Shown here: piece by piece, positions 5,662 through 43,261 of the stretch | Layout of the letters: the number at the start of each line of letters is the position of its first letter | How positions within the stretch are numbered: position 1 is the first letter of the stretch | From: a virus | Strand: one strand, 5' to 3' | Length of the DNA: 64,000 bases | Virus record (IMG/VR): IMGVR_UViG_3300017716_002841 | Span: 1 to 64,000 of that record | The notes under the pieces: model-generated | Database searches by the model: none | The model's input: only the letters and a program-made list of their open reading frames with translations | What the model was told of the DNA's origin: nothing | Translations under genes and position numbers: made by a program

Positions 5662-6000
5662 GTGAGATACACTCTATACACAAAACCATCACATAGCTCT
5701 CATAAAGGAGAATGGGCAACGTTTCCTAATGCTTCGTTGCAATATGATGAACAACAAAACGCAGTAGTTAATCAGTCTGGTACTCCTTATGATATTGATA
5801 AGTCTCTAGATAATGGTATACTTATCGGCAAAGGTCGTAGCGGCGATAAGATCGCAGCAGTACCTGAGACACATCCTGCATTCAATATGATATTCTTTCA
5901 TAAACTGTTGTATGATTATGGCTTAGGAAGCAGAATGGCACGTCGTGCTTATCTTTTGAATTTATTAACTATAACCTTAAATAAGTTAACAAACATATGA
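5662..6000 (+). CDS. MRY/PETHP-family paralogue 4
   Basis: (V/M)RYTLY start; VPETHPAFN; TATAAATA 5648-5655. Confidence 0.75.
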   Translation: MRYTLYTKPSHSSHKGEWATFPNASLQYDEQQNAVVNQSGTPYDIDKSLDNGILIGKGRSGDKIAAVPETHPAFNMIFFHKLLYDYGLGSRMARRAYLLNLLTITLNKLTNI

Positions 6001-7386: not shown

Positions 7387-7432
7387 GTATATAGAATATA
7401 TGGTAGAGAGTGATAAATAATGTTAACGCATT

Positions 7433-7795
7433 ATGAGGTACGTTTACATATCAGCTCCCAATGAGAAAAAATATCTACTCTTCCATAGAGCACTTGCAAG
7501 TGAGGAGAATGGTAAGGTGTCATTAGATTATTATAAATCAGGTTTGAAGCGTCATTTTACTGCTACTTTTAAGAGTAAGGATGGTATATTGCTCAATATC
7601 AATCGGTTTAATGTTAATATAGTAGATTACAATATGTTCATACCAGAGACGAATCCTTATTTTAATATGAATGTACTAGGTGACGCATTTCCATATCTAG
7701 ATAAGTATCAACCAGAGGTGAGGGAAGCAGTCAAGAATAATGTGTATACAACTTTTAAAAGGGTATTGAGAGAGTACAAGGTGTCTTCTGAGTAG
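7433..7795 (+). CDS. MRY/PETHP-family paralogue 6
   Basis: MRYVYI; IPETNPYFN; TAAATA 7414-7419. Confidence 0.8.
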   Translation: MRYVYISAPNEKKYLLFHRALASEENGKVSLDYYKSGLKRHFTATFKSKDGILLNINRFNVNIVDYNMFIPETNPYFNMNVLGDAFPYLDKYQPEVREAVKNNVYTTFKRVLREYKVSSE

Positions 7796-10786: not shown

Positions 10787-11038
10787 ATGCAAATGGAAAT
10801 CAACGCAATGACACGATACGAAAAACTAGAATACCTCCTCGAGACCTGCTCATCTGAATTCATTAAGGAGTGTCAGTTCCTTGATGAGATGGTCAGCTGG
10901 ATGGAAGAGGATGATTTCTCCAAGTTCTTCACTCATATCTGCTCACAATGGGAGATTAAAGACCCTACCGAAGAGGACGAAGAGGATGAGACAAATGAGT
11001 TCGTTGTCGAGGATGATCAGTTTATCTTCACAGCATAA
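10787..11038 (+). CDS. acidic early protein
   Basis: After motif 10763; D/E-rich. Confidence 0.7.
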   Translation: MQMEINAMTRYEKLEYLLETCSSEFIKECQFLDEMVSWMEEDDFSKFFTHICSQWEIKDPTEEDEEDETNEFVVEDDQFIFTA

Positions 11039-11098
11039 GGGAACTGCCGTATAATAAGGATGTCGAGAGAAAGTAAAACAAACCAACCAAATAATCAA

Positions 11099-11533
11099 AT
11101 GACTGCTACTAAGAAATATTCGTTCGTTACCATCGTTGCTCCTACTGAAGTCCGTGCTGAGTTTACTCATGTCCGTGAGGATATGATGACGACTGACAAG
11201 CAGCTGATGCAAGCTCTCTGGAACATTGCAATGCGCGACATGGGTGCGGTAGCTCATGAGGTCCAAGGTCTTAAAGAGATCGCTGCTCAGCTCAAAGAGA
11301 TCAGTAATATCTCGAAGGGAGAGGCTGAGGGTGTCATCTCTAAGGCGGCTAAGGTGAAGAAGGCTCTCGCTAAGAAAGAGCCTAAGCCAAAGAAGGAGAA
11401 GCCAGCTGCTAAGGTTAAGAAAGAGAAGGCTCCTAAGAAGACTGTCAAGTTCGAGGGCCGTGAAGAGCCTGAATATTTCGTCGGCGAAGATGACAGCCAG
11501 GAAATCCCGTGCTTGGTGGTGAACGGCCTGTGA
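11099..11533 (+). CDS. early protein with Lys/Pro/Ala-rich histone-like segment
   Basis: After motif 11040; KKALAKKEPKPKKEKPAAKVKKEKAPKK; start 11060 or 11099. Confidence 0.7.
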   Translation: MTATKKYSFVTIVAPTEVRAEFTHVREDMMTTDKQLMQALWNIAMRDMGAVAHEVQGLKEIAAQLKEISNISKGEAEGVISKAAKVKKALAKKEPKPKKEKPAAKVKKEKAPKKTVKFEGREEPEYFVGEDDSQEIPCLVVNGL

Positions 11534-11562
11534 GTGGGTGTGTGAATGTCCTGAGTATGACA

Positions 11563-12180
11563 TTAAACTGCTCCTCTTTTAGCTGCATGCGCTTTACGCA
11601 TGCTCTCACTTATATTTTTACGTGAGACGTCGGTATGTCTCCTACCTGGCTTACCTTTACGATGACTTACTCTACCTTTTGCTGCTCTACTTAGCTTTTG
11701 TTTTGTCTCGTCGGTATGTCTCCTACCTGGCTTACCTTTACGATGACTTACTCTACTCAGCTTTTGTTTTGTCTCTTCTGTAAGTTTATTACCTGGCTTA
11801 CCTTTACGGCTCGTACCTTTTTGAATCATGCGCGATTTACGAAGTATCTTTGCTTCTTCTGTAAGTTTATTACCTTTCTGTAATAAACTTAATTTTCTTT
11901 TTAACCACCCGAAACGCTTGTTGTTATTTCGACATCCATCACCTTTATCTACACACATCATATTAGCAGCAAAAGCGAGCTTAAGATTATTAGGCTGCAT
12001 CTTAACTAACAATTGATGGCAAATAAAATGCTCTTCAGGTGTTAAAATAGCAATATTTTTTTCATCATCTGAACCACTCATACATCTTGGAATGATATGA
12101 TGACGTTCGGAATAACCCTCAATCAGGGGCCTGGTTTTAGCACGGATGATAATACTCTTGTAAATTTTTTTATAGTTCAT
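11563..12180 (-). CDS. HNH homing endonuclease with NUMOD3-like repeats
   Basis: MNYKKIY...ERHHIIPRCMSGSDDEKNIAILTPEEHFICHQLL; C-terminal (H/L)T(E/D)ETKQKLS repeats; the only substantial minus-strand gene in the accessory region. Confidence 0.9.
   Translation of the reverse strand: MNYKKIYKSIIIRAKTRPLIEGYSERHHIIPRCMSGSDDEKNIAILTPEEHFICHQLLVKMQPNNLKLAFAANMMCVDKGDGCRNNNKRFGWLKRKLSLLQKGNKLTEEAKILRKSRMIQKGTSRKGKPGNKLTEETKQKLSRVSHRKGKPGRRHTDETKQKLSRAAKGRVSHRKGKPGRRHTDVSRKNISESMRKAHAAKRGAV
11629..11756. repeat. internal direct repeats encoding NUMOD3 units
   Basis: gtcggtatgtctcctacctggcttacctttacgatgacttactctac occurs at about 11629 and 11710. Confidence 0.85.
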
Positions 12181-12240
12181 TGTTAGCATTAATATTTATT
12201 CAGCATGGTAGCTTTTATTGAATATAGATTAAATAATATT

Positions 12241-12312
12241 ACCTCCAACGATTGTCAGCTCGTTCATTGTTAGCGCTTGTTCAATGCCGACTCGTTGGAG
12301 GTTCTCTCTGTC
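12241..12312 (+). ncRNA. candidate small hairpin RNA antisense to the HNH start
   Basis: TAAATA 12230-12235, then 11-bp terminal stem ACCTCCAACGA/TCGTTGGAGGT; contains gttcattgttagc, complementary to the HNH mRNA 5' end. Confidence 0.5.
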
Positions 12313-12318
12313 TAAGAT

Positions 12319-12354
12319 GATAATAGAGGTAGGTTGATCGACAGGATGAAATAA
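12319..12354 (+). pseudogene. 3' remnant of an HRxDGPA-repeat gene
   Basis: Encodes DNRGRLIDRMK*, matching DSSGQLIERME* at 8607-8642. Confidence 0.6.
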
Positions 12355-12362
12355 ATAACCAT

Positions 12363-12695
12363 ATGCAGGAGCAATACATCGAGACAAGCAGATACGGTAC
12401 AAAGAAGTACTTTATTAAAGACAAAGCTAAGACCATTCTTCACCGTGAAGACGGCCCAGCAGTTGAATATGCTAATGGTGAGAGAGCATGGTATGTTGAT
12501 GGTAAACTTCATCGTCTTGATGGCCCAGCAATTGAACATGCTGATGGAAGTAAATCGTGGTTAGTTGATGGTAAGTACCACCGTGAAGATGGTCCAGCAG
12601 TTGAATATGTCAATGGAAGTAAAGCGTGGTATGTTAATGATGTATTTATTTTTGAGGTAGATGGTAGTGGTCAGTTGGCCTTGAGGATGCAATAA
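12363..12695 (+). CDS. HRxDGPA-repeat protein 4 (three repeats)
   Basis: Three HRxDGPA units; TAAATA 12352-12357. Confidence 0.85.
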   Translation: MQEQYIETSRYGTKKYFIKDKAKTILHREDGPAVEYANGERAWYVDGKLHRLDGPAIEHADGSKSWLVDGKYHREDGPAVEYVNGSKAWYVNDVFIFEVDGSGQLALRMQ

Positions 12696-12703
12696 ATAAC
12701 CAT

Positions 12704-12964
12704 ATGCAGGAGCAATATATAACGACATTAAAGAACGGTACAAAGTATTACTTTAAAGACAAAGCAAAGACAATTTTTCATCGTATTGATGGACCAGCAG
12801 TTGAATGGGCTAATGGTGAGAAGGAATGGTATGTTAATGGTAAACGTCATCGGCTTGATGGTCCAGCAACTGAACATGCTGATGGATATCGAGCATGGTT
12901 TGTTAATGGTGTATTTATTTTTGAGGTAGATGGTAGTGGTGAGATGATTATTAGAATGCGGTAA
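12704..12964 (+). CDS. HRxDGPA-repeat protein 5
   Basis: Two units; TAAATA 12693-12698. Confidence 0.85.
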   Translation: MQEQYITTLKNGTKYYFKDKAKTIFHRIDGPAVEWANGEKEWYVNGKRHRLDGPATEHADGYRAWFVNGVFIFEVDGSGEMIIRMR

Positions 12965-12991
12965 AGTGAGGGAACACCGATATAATTAGGT

Positions 12992-13192
12992 ATGACCGAA
13001 ACAATGCACTGTAAACCAATTAAGCTTAACCTCGTCGGCCTTGATGGCAATGCCTATTCACTTATGGGAGCGTTCCAACGAGCCGCTCGTAAACAAGGGT
13101 GTACCCCAGAAGAGATCAAAGCCGTCTTAGATGATTGTATGAGTGGCAACTATGATCACCTCCTTCAGACTCTAGTGAAGCACACTCGCTAA
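12992..13192 (+). CDS. conserved phage protein (GxDGNA family)
   Basis: LVGLDGNAYSLMG...SGNYDHLL. Confidence 0.8.
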   Translation: MTETMHCKPIKLNLVGLDGNAYSLMGAFQRAARKQGCTPEEIKAVLDDCMSGNYDHLLQTLVKHTR

Positions 13193-13214
13193 GGGAACAC
13201 CAATATAATTAGGT

Positions 13215-13388
13215 ATGGCAAATAAGACATTTATGACGTTCGCAGAAATTAAAGCTGAGTACAAAGTTGAGAAGTGGTTCCATACCCCCTGGCACTTTAG
13301 CGCTTCCGGGCAATATGTCTGCTTCCTCAGCGGTAATAAAGAATGTTACAAGACTGAAGAAGGTTATGTCGTTGGAGAGCGTCGCTAA
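13215..13388 (+). CDS. small early protein (57 aa), not in ORF track
   Basis: After motif 13194. Confidence 0.6.
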   Translation: MANKTFMTFAEIKAEYKVEKWFHTPWHFSASGQYVCFLSGNKECYKTEEGYVVGERR

Positions 13389-26500: not shown

Positions 26501-26515
26501 CGATTAAATAATTTT

Positions 26516-27163
26516 ATGAAGTGGAAATATAATCTAAACGAGGTAAATGGAGCAGGTGAAGATGATATCGATAGTAAGACTCAACAAATCTTTATTAACA
26601 CAGGCGGATCCAGTAGTCAGCTAAGTAGTAATATAAGAGTAGTTGAGAATACGATTTTCTTTTATTCTGATATAACAGAACAATCCGCTTTAGATCTTAA
26701 TTGCATTTTATATGAACTTGACGCTAAACTTAAAAATACATATAACTTTTTAGGTCCTGATTTTGTTCCACATATTAAGTTACGAATTAATTCCTACGGT
26801 GGATCTGTATTTGCAGGTATGGCTATACTCGACACTATTAGGAACCTTAAATCAGAAGTTCATACTTATATCGATGGTGCTGCTGCTTCTGCAGCGACGA
26901 TCATTTCTGTAGCTGGTAAGAAGCGTTATATCGGTAAGAACTCCCTTATGCTTATTCATCAACTATCAGCTGGTAGTTATGGTAAGTTTTCTGAAATGGA
27001 AGACGATATGGAAAATAATCGTCGTATCATGAAGATGATTAAGGACATTTATAAACAATATACTAAGGTACCAATGAAACAAATAGATGAGATATTAAAG
27101 CATGATCTTTGGTTTGAGTCATCGAAGTGTATAGAACTTGGTCTAGTGGATCAAGTTCTATAA
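26516..27163 (+). CDS. clpP: ClpP-like serine protease
   Basis: INSYGGSV, AASAAT, LIHQ, HDLWF...ELGLVD. Confidence 0.85.
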   Translation: MKWKYNLNEVNGAGEDDIDSKTQQIFINTGGSSSQLSSNIRVVENTIFFYSDITEQSALDLNCILYELDAKLKNTYNFLGPDFVPHIKLRINSYGGSVFAGMAILDTIRNLKSEVHTYIDGAAASAATIISVAGKKRYIGKNSLMLIHQLSAGSYGKFSEMEDDMENNRRIMKMIKDIYKQYTKVPMKQIDEILKHDLWFESSKCIELGLVDQVL

Positions 27164-42504: not shown

Positions 42505-43261
42505 ATTTTGCTTGCTTAGATAAATTATCTCTCTCCCATAGAGGTTGATAATTTGTGTGGTGACAAAGCTCTTTAAACAGATCCATATTAGAAATATCCT
42601 TAAGCATTGCAAGTGGTTTAATGTGATCTAGATGCCAGCAATGATTACCTCTACCATGATTATCCCAGGTCATACCTTCGACGAATTGACTTTCTATATG
42701 AACTCTAAATTCTTCTATCGAACAACCAAGATACTTTATTGATGGGTGTGAGAGAGATACATCAGAATATTTTACAGCTTGTCGTACATGCTCACGTATA
42801 TTACATCTTAACTTATATAGAGGATCCTCGCTATACTTTTTTCGAAATACCCCATTTTTTTTATCCTCTAAATACCTACTCTTTGCCTTTTTTATATAAT
42901 GCGCCCTGTTATCGTGTCTGTGTTGTTTGACATTCTCATTAAGCTTTACTCGCGCCTCTGCAGTCAGTCCTTCATACCACTCCTTCCACTTCTTAGGCGT
43001 AATACCCTGCAACCTACGGTATTCTCTATATTCTTTATTTCTCTCCTGTACCTCTTTATCGAGCTTTGTTTTTTGATGTCTCTCTTTACCTTTTTCTGAT
43101 ATCTTCTGCTTTACCCTTGTTGACGCGAGCCAATACCGTACATTCTCAGGCCAAACATTAAATTTTTCTTTCACAGTCCATATTCCATGCTTTTGTGCGT
43201 AAGCAATAATTTCTTGCTTCTCAGTATCAGTATACTTCTTATTACGTCTAAACTCACTCAC
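42494..43261 (-). CDS. HNH endonuclease with N-terminal HTH
   Basis: LGCSIEEF..HIESQF..GMTWDNHG..WHLDHIKP...NYQPLW..DNLSK. Confidence 0.85.
   Translation of the reverse strand: MSEFRRNKKYTDTEKQEIIAYAQKHGIWTVKEKFNVWPENVRYWLASTRVKQKISEKGKERHQKTKLDKEVQERNKEYREYRRLQGITPKKWKEWYEGLTAEARVKLNENVKQHRHDNRAHYIKKAKSRYLEDKKNGVFRKKYSEDPLYKLRCNIREHVRQAVKYSDVSLSHPSIKYLGCSIEEFRVHIESQFVEGMTWDNHGRGNHCWHLDHIKPLAMLKDISNMDLFKELCHHTNYQPLWERDNLSKQAKYEV

What the first reader, a model, noticed from the sequence alone, without database searches (positions are those of the whole stretch)
11563..12354. HNH-NUMOD3 endonuclease paired with a divergent hairpin RNA complementary to its own mRNA 5' end
Seen: back-to-back TAAATA motifs (minus 12198-12193, plus 12230-12235). 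Counting 5 nt from each, the minus transcript starts GCUAACAAUGAAC (12187-12175, including the AUG). The plus transcript starts exactly at the base of a 62-nt hairpin (12241-12302; 11-bp ACCTCCAACGA/TCGTTGGAGGT stem, inner CATTG/CAATG stem, pyrimidine tail). That hairpin contains GTTCATTGTTAGC (12262-12274), the perfect 13-nt complement of the predicted mRNA 5' end, partly in the apical loop. The unit abuts a 3' remnant of an HRxDGPA gene, suggesting recent insertion. Known: phage homing endonucleases are often restrained by cis hairpins over the RBS. Inference: here a non-overlapping antisense sRNA may do this job (type I TA-like logic). Caveat: an A-C mismatch on plus is a G-U pair on minus, so the fold may be used on the minus strand.
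Basis: partly seen in the sequence, partly recalled or inferred. Interest (0 to 1): 0.75.

Follow-up and report, generated by a model that had tools for sequence, protein, structure and literature searches.

The report
Homing endonuclease with possible antisense hairpin RNA
An uncultured T4-like phage carries a recently acquired MobB-type homing endonuclease gene, and beside it a predicted promoter-plus-hairpin whose loop exactly matches the start of the endonuclease message; this may be an RNA brake on a DNA-cutting enzyme, but no RNA data or related sequences could test it.

Summary
A 205/208-aa MobB-like HNH-NUMOD3 endonuclease gene lies on the minus strand (11563-12189). Two back-to-back TAAATA motifs precede it. 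A 62-nt hairpin (12241-12302) starts exactly where the plus motif predicts a transcript start. A 13-nt direct repeat (12175-12187 and 12262-12274) makes the hairpin loop complementary to the predicted mRNA 5' end, AUG included.

- The plus motif is GATTAAATA. All six copies in the 105-kb record are intergenic, and four sit just before gene starts.
- The phage has a gp55 homologue.
- Both pairing sites are accessible (net about -15 kcal/mol).
- The 13-mer is an outlier (0 of 20000 loop shuffles).
- The endonuclease is strain-specific.

Against the reading:
- No relative carries the hairpin, so covariation cannot be tested.
- There is no terminator after the hairpin.
- The fold is better on the minus strand.
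- RNA data were unavailable.

Best reading, about 40%: a divergently encoded antisense RNA that damps endonuclease translation, with an architecture like RalR/RalA. Rivals are a 5'-end hairpin carrying a non-functional duplication, an I-TevI-style DNA operator, a minus-strand insulator, and chance. It would be a new variant of a known kind. Interest is moderate.

The parts
11563..12189 (-). HNH-NUMOD3 free-standing homing endonuclease gene. The longest ORF starts at 12189; homologues align from the second Met at 12180.
   Evidence: ORF. phrog_655 homing endonuclease, E 7.6e-54. Pfam NUMOD3, 2.7e-11. 49% identity to T4 MobB over 104 aa, E 7e-30, and 42% to MobC. tblastn hits begin at residue 4 of the long ORF.
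11608..11822 (-). Internal tandem repeats that encode the NUMOD3 units. The two 68-nt copies, 81 nt apart, are 87% identical.
   Evidence: the repeat finder family D11; exact 26-28-nt repeats; NUMOD3 matches at 11650-11727 and 11752-11793.
12175..12187 (-). Copy A of the 13-mer. It equals the predicted first 13 nt of the endonuclease mRNA (GCUAACAAUGAAC), a 7-nt leader plus AUG AAC.
   Evidence: The start-site position is inferred from the TAAATA-N5 rule.
12193..12198 (-). Late-promoter-like TAAATA for the endonuclease gene (context GAATAAATA).
   Evidence: The motif class is supported by 28 TAAATA-N5/6-ATG gene starts and a gp55 homologue.
12227..12235 (+). Late-promoter-like GATTAAATA. The predicted start, 5 nt after it, is A12241, the first base of the hairpin.
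   Evidence: All 6 GATTAAATA in 105 kb are intergenic and 4 lie 5-8 nt before gene starts. It shares a 15-nt identity with the motif before the gene at 43261 on the minus strand.
12241..12302 (+). 62-nt hairpin: 11-bp perfect outer stem and a large, weakly paired apical region.
   Evidence: energies and z-scores on both strands; the perfect inverted repeat with the largest G+C-moderate stem in this region; probability of being unpaired.
12262..12274 (+). Copy B of the 13-mer, in the apical part of the hairpin. As plus-strand RNA it is the perfect complement of copy A's mRNA.
   Evidence: duplex -17.5 kcal/mol, opening costs 1.9 and 0.3, net -15.3.
12303..12354 (+). 3' remnant of an HRxDGPA-repeat gene. 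It is clear from 12319 and degenerate before that. Its stop codon overlaps the TAAATA of the next gene.
   Evidence: (D14).
12352..12357 (+). TAAATA-N5-ATG promoter of gene 12363, so the downstream gene has its own start signal.

Best explanation
A MobB-type HNH-NUMOD3 homing endonuclease gene entered the variable early region of a distant T4-like phage in reverse orientation. It replaced an early promoter and most of an HRxDGPA-repeat gene. Late in infection two back-to-back gp55-type promoters fire. The minus one gives an endonuclease mRNA with a 7-nt, Shine-Dalgarno-less leader. The plus one gives an RNA whose first 62 nt form a hairpin. The open apical region of that hairpin pairs over 13 contiguous bases with nucleotides +1 to +13 of the endonuclease mRNA, covering the AUG, and so lowers translation and perhaps mRNA stability. 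The plus RNA probably does not end at the hairpin. It runs on into the downstream genes, or is trimmed back to the hairpin. Shown: the sequence anatomy, the promoter-motif statistics, the predicted accessibility and energy, and the strain-specificity of the gene. Inferred: both transcript starts, the existence of the plus RNA, the pairing in vivo, and repression.
For: 1. The 13-nt identity is exact, sharply bounded and a statistical outlier.
2. The plus motif is of the GATTAAATA class. All six copies in the record are intergenic and four sit before gene starts.
3. TAAATA-N5/6-ATG precedes 28 genes and a gp55 homologue is encoded at 82154-82483 of the record. The N5 rule then places the plus start exactly at the hairpin base.
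4. The downstream gene 12363 has its own TAAATA-N5-ATG, so the plus promoter is not needed to express it.
5. The loop bases are mostly unpaired. Opening costs are 1.9 and 0.3 kcal/mol, the duplex is -17.5 and the net is -15.3.
6. In a phage whose genes mostly start at or next to the transcript start, a cis hairpin over a ribosome-binding site is not available, so control in trans is a plausible substitute (inference).
7. Precedents exist. RalA is encoded adjacent and opposite to the DNase toxin gene ralR and acts through a 16-nt repeat (PMC4041452). tisB/istR-1, shoB/ohsC and zor/orz are divergent, non-overlapping pairs (PMC4147584). CfrI is an antisense RNA to a homing endonuclease gene in cyanophage S-PM2 (PMC2984593).
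Against: No relative carries the hairpin or a close copy of the gene, so there is no conservation or covariation.
Distant homologues of the endonuclease show only 6-10-nt repeats of their start region upstream.
No intrinsic terminator follows the hairpin, whereas real terminators in this genome have U-runs.
The fold is 4 kcal/mol better on the minus strand.
TAAATA alone is a weak signal: 222 copies, of which 41 sit 3-9 nt before an ATG that opens an ORF of at least 40 aa.
Promoter-then-hairpin units are not enriched in this or related phages.
By unrestricted duplex energy another gene ties with the endonuclease as best target.
Confidence: 0.4

Rival explanations
1. The hairpin is a structural element at the 5' end of a plus-strand late transcript. 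It stabilises the RNA, or insulates the repeat genes downstream after the insertion displaced their early promoter. The 13-nt repeat is a non-functional by-product of the insertion or its repair, a short templated copy of nearby sequence.
For: The predicted start lies exactly at the hairpin base, with no unpaired 5' nucleotides. No terminator follows, so the RNA continues into genes 12363 and 12704. The junction with the gene remnant lies within about 15 nt of the hairpin. T4 seg and mob insertions are known to displace or carry promoters for neighbouring genes (PMC2988022). The repeat is unique to this strain, as expected of a recent mutational event.
Against: Gene 12363 already has its own TAAATA-N5-ATG. 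A copy of exactly the mRNA 5' end, placed in the open loop and with no flanking similarity, has no simple mutational mechanism. No other promoter-then-hairpin unit exists in the genome.
Confidence: 0.22
2. The two 13-bp copies are DNA sites for the endonuclease's own DNA-binding domain. As with I-TevI, one is an operator over the transcript start of its late promoter, and it resembles a second site near the insertion point (a residual target site). This gives transcriptional autorepression, and the hairpin is unrelated.
For: Direct repeats in DNA fit protein binding as well as they fit antisense pairing. Copy A spans +1 to +13 of the predicted start, just after TAAATA. [quoted passage not shown] The protein carries several NUMOD3 DNA-binding units.
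Against: It does not explain the hairpin or the start-at-base geometry. The target site of this enzyme is unknown. The 13-mer does not occur, beyond chance, in endonuclease-free relatives or in the repeat genes.
Confidence: 0.12
3. The hairpin works on the minus strand. It acts as a terminator-like insulator that stops antisense late transcripts, arising inside the repeat genes, from reading into the endonuclease gene, so that the gene is expressed only from its own promoter.
For: The minus-strand fold is the more stable (-26.3, z -5.1) and has two G-U pairs that are A-C mismatches on plus. Minus-strand TAAATA motifs lie inside both downstream genes, at 12643-12648 and 12912-12917. On the minus strand the hairpin lies upstream of the endonuclease promoter.
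Against: The tail after the minus-strand hairpin starts with AA and is not a U-run, and the terminator scan found nothing. The internal TAAATA motifs are fixed by a conserved coding motif and need not fire. This reading leaves the 13-mer unexplained.
Confidence: 0.1
4. Coincidence. The repeat, the hairpin and the plus TAAATA are unrelated features of an AT-rich divergent intergenic region.
For: The features were picked out after the fact. TAAATA is frequent (222 copies). With a uniform-composition estimate I expect roughly 0.2-0.4 close 13-mer repeats per 105 kb.
Against: 0 of 20000 loop shuffles reach 13. It is the only such repeat outside coding repeats. GATTAAATA is exclusively intergenic. 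The three features interlock at single-base precision.
Confidence: 0.08

Closest known systems
RalR/RalA type I toxin-antitoxin pair of the rac prophage (PMC4041452)
   Same: The protein is a DNA endonuclease. The RNA gene is adjacent and in opposite orientation, without overlap. Control rests on a short direct repeat in the DNA (16 nt there, 13 nt here), so the RNA is complementary to the mRNA. It sits on a phage-derived element.
   Different: RalA pairs inside the coding region and needs Hfq; here the pairing would cover the mRNA 5' end and the AUG. RalR is a non-specific DNase toxin, not a homing endonuclease. RalA is shown experimentally; here nothing is.
Divergent type I loci tisB/istR-1, shoB/ohsC, zor/orz, dinQ/agrB (PMC4147584, PMC3919570)
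   Same: The sRNA is transcribed divergently from the target gene, does not overlap it, and has a limited stretch of perfect complementarity.
   Different: Those sRNAs pair within long 5' leaders, away from the start codon, and their toxins are small hydrophobic peptides. Here the leader is 7 nt and the duplex includes the AUG.
RBS-sequestering hairpins of T4-type homing endonucleases (I-TevI, I-TevII, I-TevIII, segB, Aeh1 mobE; PMC2988022)
   Same: The purpose would be the same: holding down translation of a phage homing endonuclease that is driven by a late promoter.
   Different: Those hairpins are in cis, on the endonuclease mRNA itself, and cover a Shine-Dalgarno site. Here the hairpin lies outside the predicted mRNA, on the other strand, and there is no Shine-Dalgarno site.
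CfrI antisense RNA of cyanophage S-PM2 (Millard et al. 2010, as described in PMC2984593)
   Same: An antisense RNA associated with a homing endonuclease gene in a T4-like phage.
   Different: CfrI is a cis-antisense RNA of about 225 nt that overlaps the endonuclease gene and psbA. Here the RNA would not overlap the gene and would pair through 13 nt only.
I-TevI operator autorepression (PMC2988022)
   Same: A sequence at the endonuclease's late promoter is repeated nearby.
   Different: That mechanism is protein-DNA. It needs no hairpin and no second promoter.

Membership tests
T4 Mob-type free-standing HNH homing endonuclease | HNH catalytic motif (HH..N..H) in the N-terminal domain, with sequence similarity to MobB/MobC | tested here: met
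   HHIIPR...EKNIAIL...EEHFICH is present. 49% identity to T4 MobB (E 7e-30) and 42% to MobC. phrog_655, E 7.6e-54.
T4 Mob-type free-standing HNH homing endonuclease | C-terminal NUMOD3 DNA-binding repeats | tested here: met
   Pfam PF07460, E 2.7e-11; two matches in the frame.
T4 Mob-type free-standing HNH homing endonuclease | Free-standing between genes (no intron or intein) and present only in some related genomes | tested here: met
   No Rfam intron match. Relative L041 lacks it. The neighbouring gene has 84-98% identical relatives, whereas the endonuclease's best homologue is 51% identical.
T4 Mob-type free-standing HNH homing endonuclease | Site-specific cleavage of an endonuclease-free allele, and homing | not testable with these tools
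   Needs the enzyme and target DNA.
Type I toxin-antitoxin system, trans-encoded or divergent kind | Antitoxin RNA gene adjacent to the toxin gene, with a short stretch of perfect complementarity to the toxin mRNA | tested here: met
   13/13 nt, 75 nt between the two copies, divergent promoter-like motifs.
Type I toxin-antitoxin system, trans-encoded or divergent kind | The antitoxin RNA is actually transcribed | not testable with these tools
Only promoter-motif evidence is available.
Type I toxin-antitoxin system, trans-encoded or divergent kind | The protein is toxic when the RNA is absent, and the RNA blocks its translation or destabilises its mRNA | not testable with these tools
   Experimental.
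Cis RBS-sequestering hairpin of T4 homing endonucleases | The hairpin is on the endonuclease mRNA and pairs with its ribosome-binding site or start | tested here: not met
   On the minus strand the hairpin ends 42 nt upstream of the TAAATA and lies outside the predicted mRNA. The longest cis complement of the start region within 250 nt upstream is 8 nt. The first 60-80 nt of the mRNA are nearly unstructured at the 5' end.
I-TevI-type operator autorepression | A sequence overlapping the endonuclease's late promoter or start site resembles its homing site and is bound by the enzyme | tested here: inconclusive
   A perfect 13-bp repeat exists, but the homing site is unknown and the 13-mer is not found in endonuclease-free relatives.
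Intrinsic (rho-independent) terminator | G+C-rich stem directly followed by a U-run | tested here: not met
   0 terminator-like sites in 10900-13300 on either strand. The tails are UCUCUCUGUCU (plus) and AAUAUUAUUUAAU (minus).
Any curated RNA family (Rfam 15) | Covariance-model match at or near the gathering score | tested here: not met
   Over 11400-12800 at E up to 10 there were only sub-threshold snoRNA-type chance hits, all inside the coding region and none on the hairpin. No tRNA or tmRNA.

The most novel reading that the evidence does not exclude
A phage homing endonuclease is held in check by its own divergently transcribed hairpin RNA, which pairs with the first 13 nt of the endonuclease mRNA. 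This would be a type I toxin-antitoxin-like module riding with a selfish nuclease gene, in a phage where cis control at a ribosome-binding site is unavailable because most mRNAs appear to be leaderless.
Probability: 0.35. Interest if true: 0.7.

Novelty: new variant of a known kind. Interest (0 to 1): 0.5.

Why it matters
Homing endonucleases are selfish DNA cutters, and their phage hosts must restrain them. The documented restraints in T4-type phages are promoter choice, cis hairpins over the ribosome-binding site, and autorepression. A dedicated non-overlapping antisense RNA would add a fourth solution. It would link homing-endonuclease biology to type I toxin-antitoxin logic, for which RalR/RalA is the only DNase example I found. 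It would also be a rare predicted regulatory RNA in an uncultured T4-like phage. The case further shows how gene control may be rebuilt in a phage whose promoters sit directly on start codons. If the repeat is only an insertion scar, the locus is still a clean example of a recent free-standing endonuclease invasion that truncated a resident gene.

Tried and rejected
Searches for the hairpin elsewhere:
- The exact-arm pattern gave 0 hits in IMG/VR.
- A 10+10 arm pattern in metagenomes gave 42 hits. All are unrelated palindromes with different interiors.
- The 18-nt loop string in IMG/VR gave 4 unrelated chance hits.
- The repeat-gene junction string gave 0 hits.
- blastn of the intergenic region against phage genomes gave only one 26-nt chance hit.

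Searches for relatives of the locus:
- The endonuclease in IMG/VR reached 39% identity at best.
- In 5.8 billion proteins it reached 51% at best.
- Loci found with g11060, g12992 and repeat-gene relatives carry no hairpin and no endonuclease.

Tools that were not available:
The 96%-identical neighbour-gene contig, which might show the endonuclease-free allele, could not be read.

Ideas tested and rejected:
- Rfam, tRNA and terminator scans were negative.
- A decayed larger duplication is rejected because the flanks of the two copies share no similarity.
- A transposon-like 74-nt insert with target-site duplication is rejected because it has no terminal inverted repeats.
- A remnant of an older endonuclease start is rejected because the 12-codon frame in the hairpin does not resemble the family N-terminus.
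- A general class of promoter-then-hairpin RNAs is rejected because such units are not enriched.
- The hairpin as part of the repeat-gene remnant found only a weak, ambiguous alignment of its 3' arm.

PDB sequence search gave nothing useful.

Full report
CONTEXT. The window is the first 64 kb of a 105,316-bp IMG/VR virus record judged about 50% complete. Its major head protein is about 33% identical to gp23 of T4-like cyanophages, and portal, helicase and ribonucleotide reductase genes are present. A homologue of the T4 late sigma factor gp55 lies at 82154-82483 of the record (E 3e-10). The phage is a distant, uncultured T4-like myovirus.

- Anatomy. The sequence shows every element at the stated coordinates: the minus-strand ORF 11563-12189, TAAATA on minus at 12198-12193 and on plus at 12230-12235, a 62-nt inverted repeat at 12241-12302 with a perfect 11-bp outer stem, and GTTCATTGTTAGC at both 12175-12187 and 12262-12274.
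- Fold. The hairpin is well beyond shuffled controls on both strands: -22.1 kcal/mol (z -3.5) on plus and -26.3 (z -5.1) on minus.
- Uniqueness of the 13-mer. It has exactly two copies in the window and in the whole record.
- Not chance. It is the only close 13-nt direct repeat outside repeat-domain coding and low-complexity sequence. Among 160 genes, only reiterated early-promoter motifs and this gene repeat 12 nt or more of their start region within 250 nt upstream. None of 20000 composition-preserving shuffles of the loop reached 13.
- Sharp edges. The flanks of the two copies are unrelated, so this is a sharply bounded exact repeat and not a decayed larger duplication.

THE GENE.
- Family. 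The protein matches PHROG 655, homing endonuclease (E 7.6e-54), and Pfam NUMOD3. It is 49% identical to T4 MobB over the catalytic domain (E 7e-30) and 42% to MobC. The HH...N...H motif is intact.
- Start codon. More than a thousand phage records carry homologues, and the listed alignments start at or just before the second Met (12180). That Met is the likely start.
- Recent arrival. The best homologue among 5.8 billion proteins is 51% identical. The neighbouring gene g11060 has relatives at 84-98% identity on contigs up to 75 kb. In the IMG/VR relative L041 the g11060 homologue is followed directly by an early promoter motif and small genes, and then by the homologue of gene 14420.
- Right boundary. 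The insert abuts a 3' remnant of an HRxDGPA-repeat gene. 12319-12354 is about 80% identical to the ends of genes 8382 and 12363, in frame through the stop. The junction lies within about 15 nt of the hairpin's 3' end.

PROMOTERS.
- Two motif classes. GGAAC-N5-TATAAT-N5/6-ATG heads many small genes. TAAATA-N5/6-ATG heads 28 genes, including portal and other structural genes.
- Start-site rule. From established knowledge, a T4 late promoter (TATAAATA at -13 to -6) places the start 5 nt after the motif. Both classes therefore put the transcript start on the A of the ATG, which implies mostly leaderless mRNAs. That rule places the endonuclease mRNA start at G12187 (a 7-nt leader with no Shine-Dalgarno sequence) and the plus-strand start at A12241, the first base of the hairpin.
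- Strength of the signal. TAAATA alone carries little information: there are 222 copies, and a weight matrix shows almost nothing beyond the hexamer.
- The plus motif is stronger. It reads GATTAAATA. All six copies of that 9-mer in 105 kb are intergenic or at gene boundaries, although only 8.4% of the record is non-coding by my crude gene map. Four lie 5-8 nt before gene starts, and one shares a 15-nt identity with the plus motif. I therefore consider the plus promoter probably real.
- The plus promoter is not needed downstream. Gene 12363 has its own TAAATA-N5-ATG.

PAIRING. In the plus-strand fold the apical 26-40 nt are only weakly paired, and the 13-mer bases have unpaired probabilities of 0.26-0.97. 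An accessibility-corrected estimate gives a duplex of -17.5 kcal/mol, opening costs of 1.9 (hairpin RNA) and 0.3 (mRNA), and a net of -15.3 kcal/mol. The first 30 nt of the mRNA are unstructured. The duplex would cover +1 to +13, including the AUG at +8 to +10.

WHAT COUNTS AGAINST A DISCRETE ANTISENSE sRNA.
- No U-run follows the hairpin on either strand, and the terminator scan found nothing. Genuine terminators in this genome have clear U-runs. A plus RNA would therefore read on into genes 12363 and 12704 unless it is processed.
- The fold is 4 kcal/mol better on the minus strand, because two wobble pairs there are A-C mismatches on plus.
- Promoter-then-hairpin units are not enriched in this or related phages, and no other orphan TAAATA in the record is followed by a strong structure.
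- Distant homologues of the endonuclease have only 6-10-nt repeats of their start region upstream. Several of them have the plain TAAATA-N5-ATG arrangement.
- With unrestricted duplex folding, another gene start ties with the endonuclease as best target. The specificity rests on the contiguous perfect match, not on energy alone.
- No relative of the hairpin exists in IMG/VR, in the metagenome collection or in phage genomes. Covariation cannot be tested.

EXPLANATION AND RIVALS. I put the trans-antisense reading first, at about 0.40. It is the only one that uses all three interlocking features: the start site at the hairpin base, the repeat in the open loop, and the repeat covering the mRNA 5' end and the AUG.
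- Rival, about 0.22: a plus-strand 5'-terminal hairpin with a non-functional repeat.
- Rival, about 0.12: DNA-level autorepression through duplicated binding sites, as shown for I-TevI (15/20 operator to homing-site identity, PMC2988022).
- Rival, about 0.10: a minus-strand insulator against antisense late transcripts, which could arise at TAAATA motifs inside the downstream genes (12643-12648 and 12912-12917).
- Rival, about 0.08: coincidence.

COMPARISON WITH KNOWN SYSTEMS. The locus would work like the divergent or adjacent type I toxin-antitoxin loci.
- In RalR/RalA, a DNase gene and an opposite-strand sRNA gene share a 16-nt repeat through which translation is blocked (PMC4041452).
- Membership in type I systems cannot be claimed, because transcription of the RNA, toxicity and repression are all untested.
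- It is not a member of the cis RBS-hairpin class of T4 endonucleases (PMC2988022). The hairpin is outside the predicted mRNA, and the longest cis complement of the start region is 8 nt.
- CfrI of cyanophage S-PM2 is an overlapping cis-antisense RNA to a homing endonuclease gene (PMC2984593), so it is a precedent for the theme but not for the architecture.

VERDICT. If true, the locus is a new variant of a known kind: trans-encoded antisense control applied to a phage homing endonuclease. Interest is moderate (0.5). The geometry is unusually coherent and the promoter evidence improved on testing, but it is a single locus with no comparative or expression support.

Noticed in passing
whole record; e.g. 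window 12352-12365, 26505-26518, 48434-48421 (minus): Promoter-like hexamers sit directly on start codons. TAAATA-N5/6-ATG precedes 28 ORFs of at least 40 aa and TATAAT-N5/6-ATG precedes 25. With T4-type spacing the transcript would begin at the A of the ATG, so about a third of the genes may give leaderless mRNAs. GTG starts fit the same spacing (5662, 51375).
   Followed up: partly
window 12227, 26502, 32840, 43278 (minus); record 70149, 89834: The 9-mer GATTAAATA occurs six times in 105 kb and never inside a gene. It looks like a distinct subclass of the late-type promoter.
   Followed up: partly
record G000 89834-89900 (outside the window): GATTAAATA overlaps the stop codon of gene 89485-89835. 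It is followed at once by a G+C-rich hairpin and a run of seven T. This is either an ordinary terminator or a second promoter-plus-hairpin unit.
   Followed up: no
window 11608-11822 (minus-strand gene): The NUMOD3 region of the endonuclease gene contains a very recent tandem duplication: 68-nt copies 81 nt apart at 87% identity, with exact runs of 26-28 nt. The DNA-binding repeat number is evolving.
   Followed up: no
window 5978-5999 and 7414-7435: Two MRY-family genes have TAAATA-N13-ATG, which predicts 8-nt A/C-rich leaders (ACAAACAU, AACGCAUU) like the 7-nt leader of the endonuclease. Short leaders without a Shine-Dalgarno sequence are a minority class here.
   Followed up: no
window 12643-12648 and 12912-12917 (minus strand): The conserved VFIFE coding motif of the HRxDGPA-repeat genes contains TAAATA on the opposite strand. 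If active, each such gene would emit a late antisense transcript.
   Followed up: no
record G000 82154-82483 (outside the window): Homologue of the T4 late sigma factor gp55 (37% identity, E 3e-10).
   Followed up: partly
loci L056, L057, L066, L069, L070 (two copies), L072, L078, L080, L087, L088, L091, L093: Metagenome contigs from three ENA assemblies (ERZ773099, ERZ772917, ERZ772964) carry a 64-nt near-perfect palindrome, CCTCCAACGAAATCCTCACAGC...GCTGTGAGGATTTCGTTGGAGG. It recurs in many copies and is flanked by G/C-rich runs, so it looks like a dispersed palindromic repeat family. It is unrelated to this phage and was found only because its arms match the search pattern.
   Followed up: no
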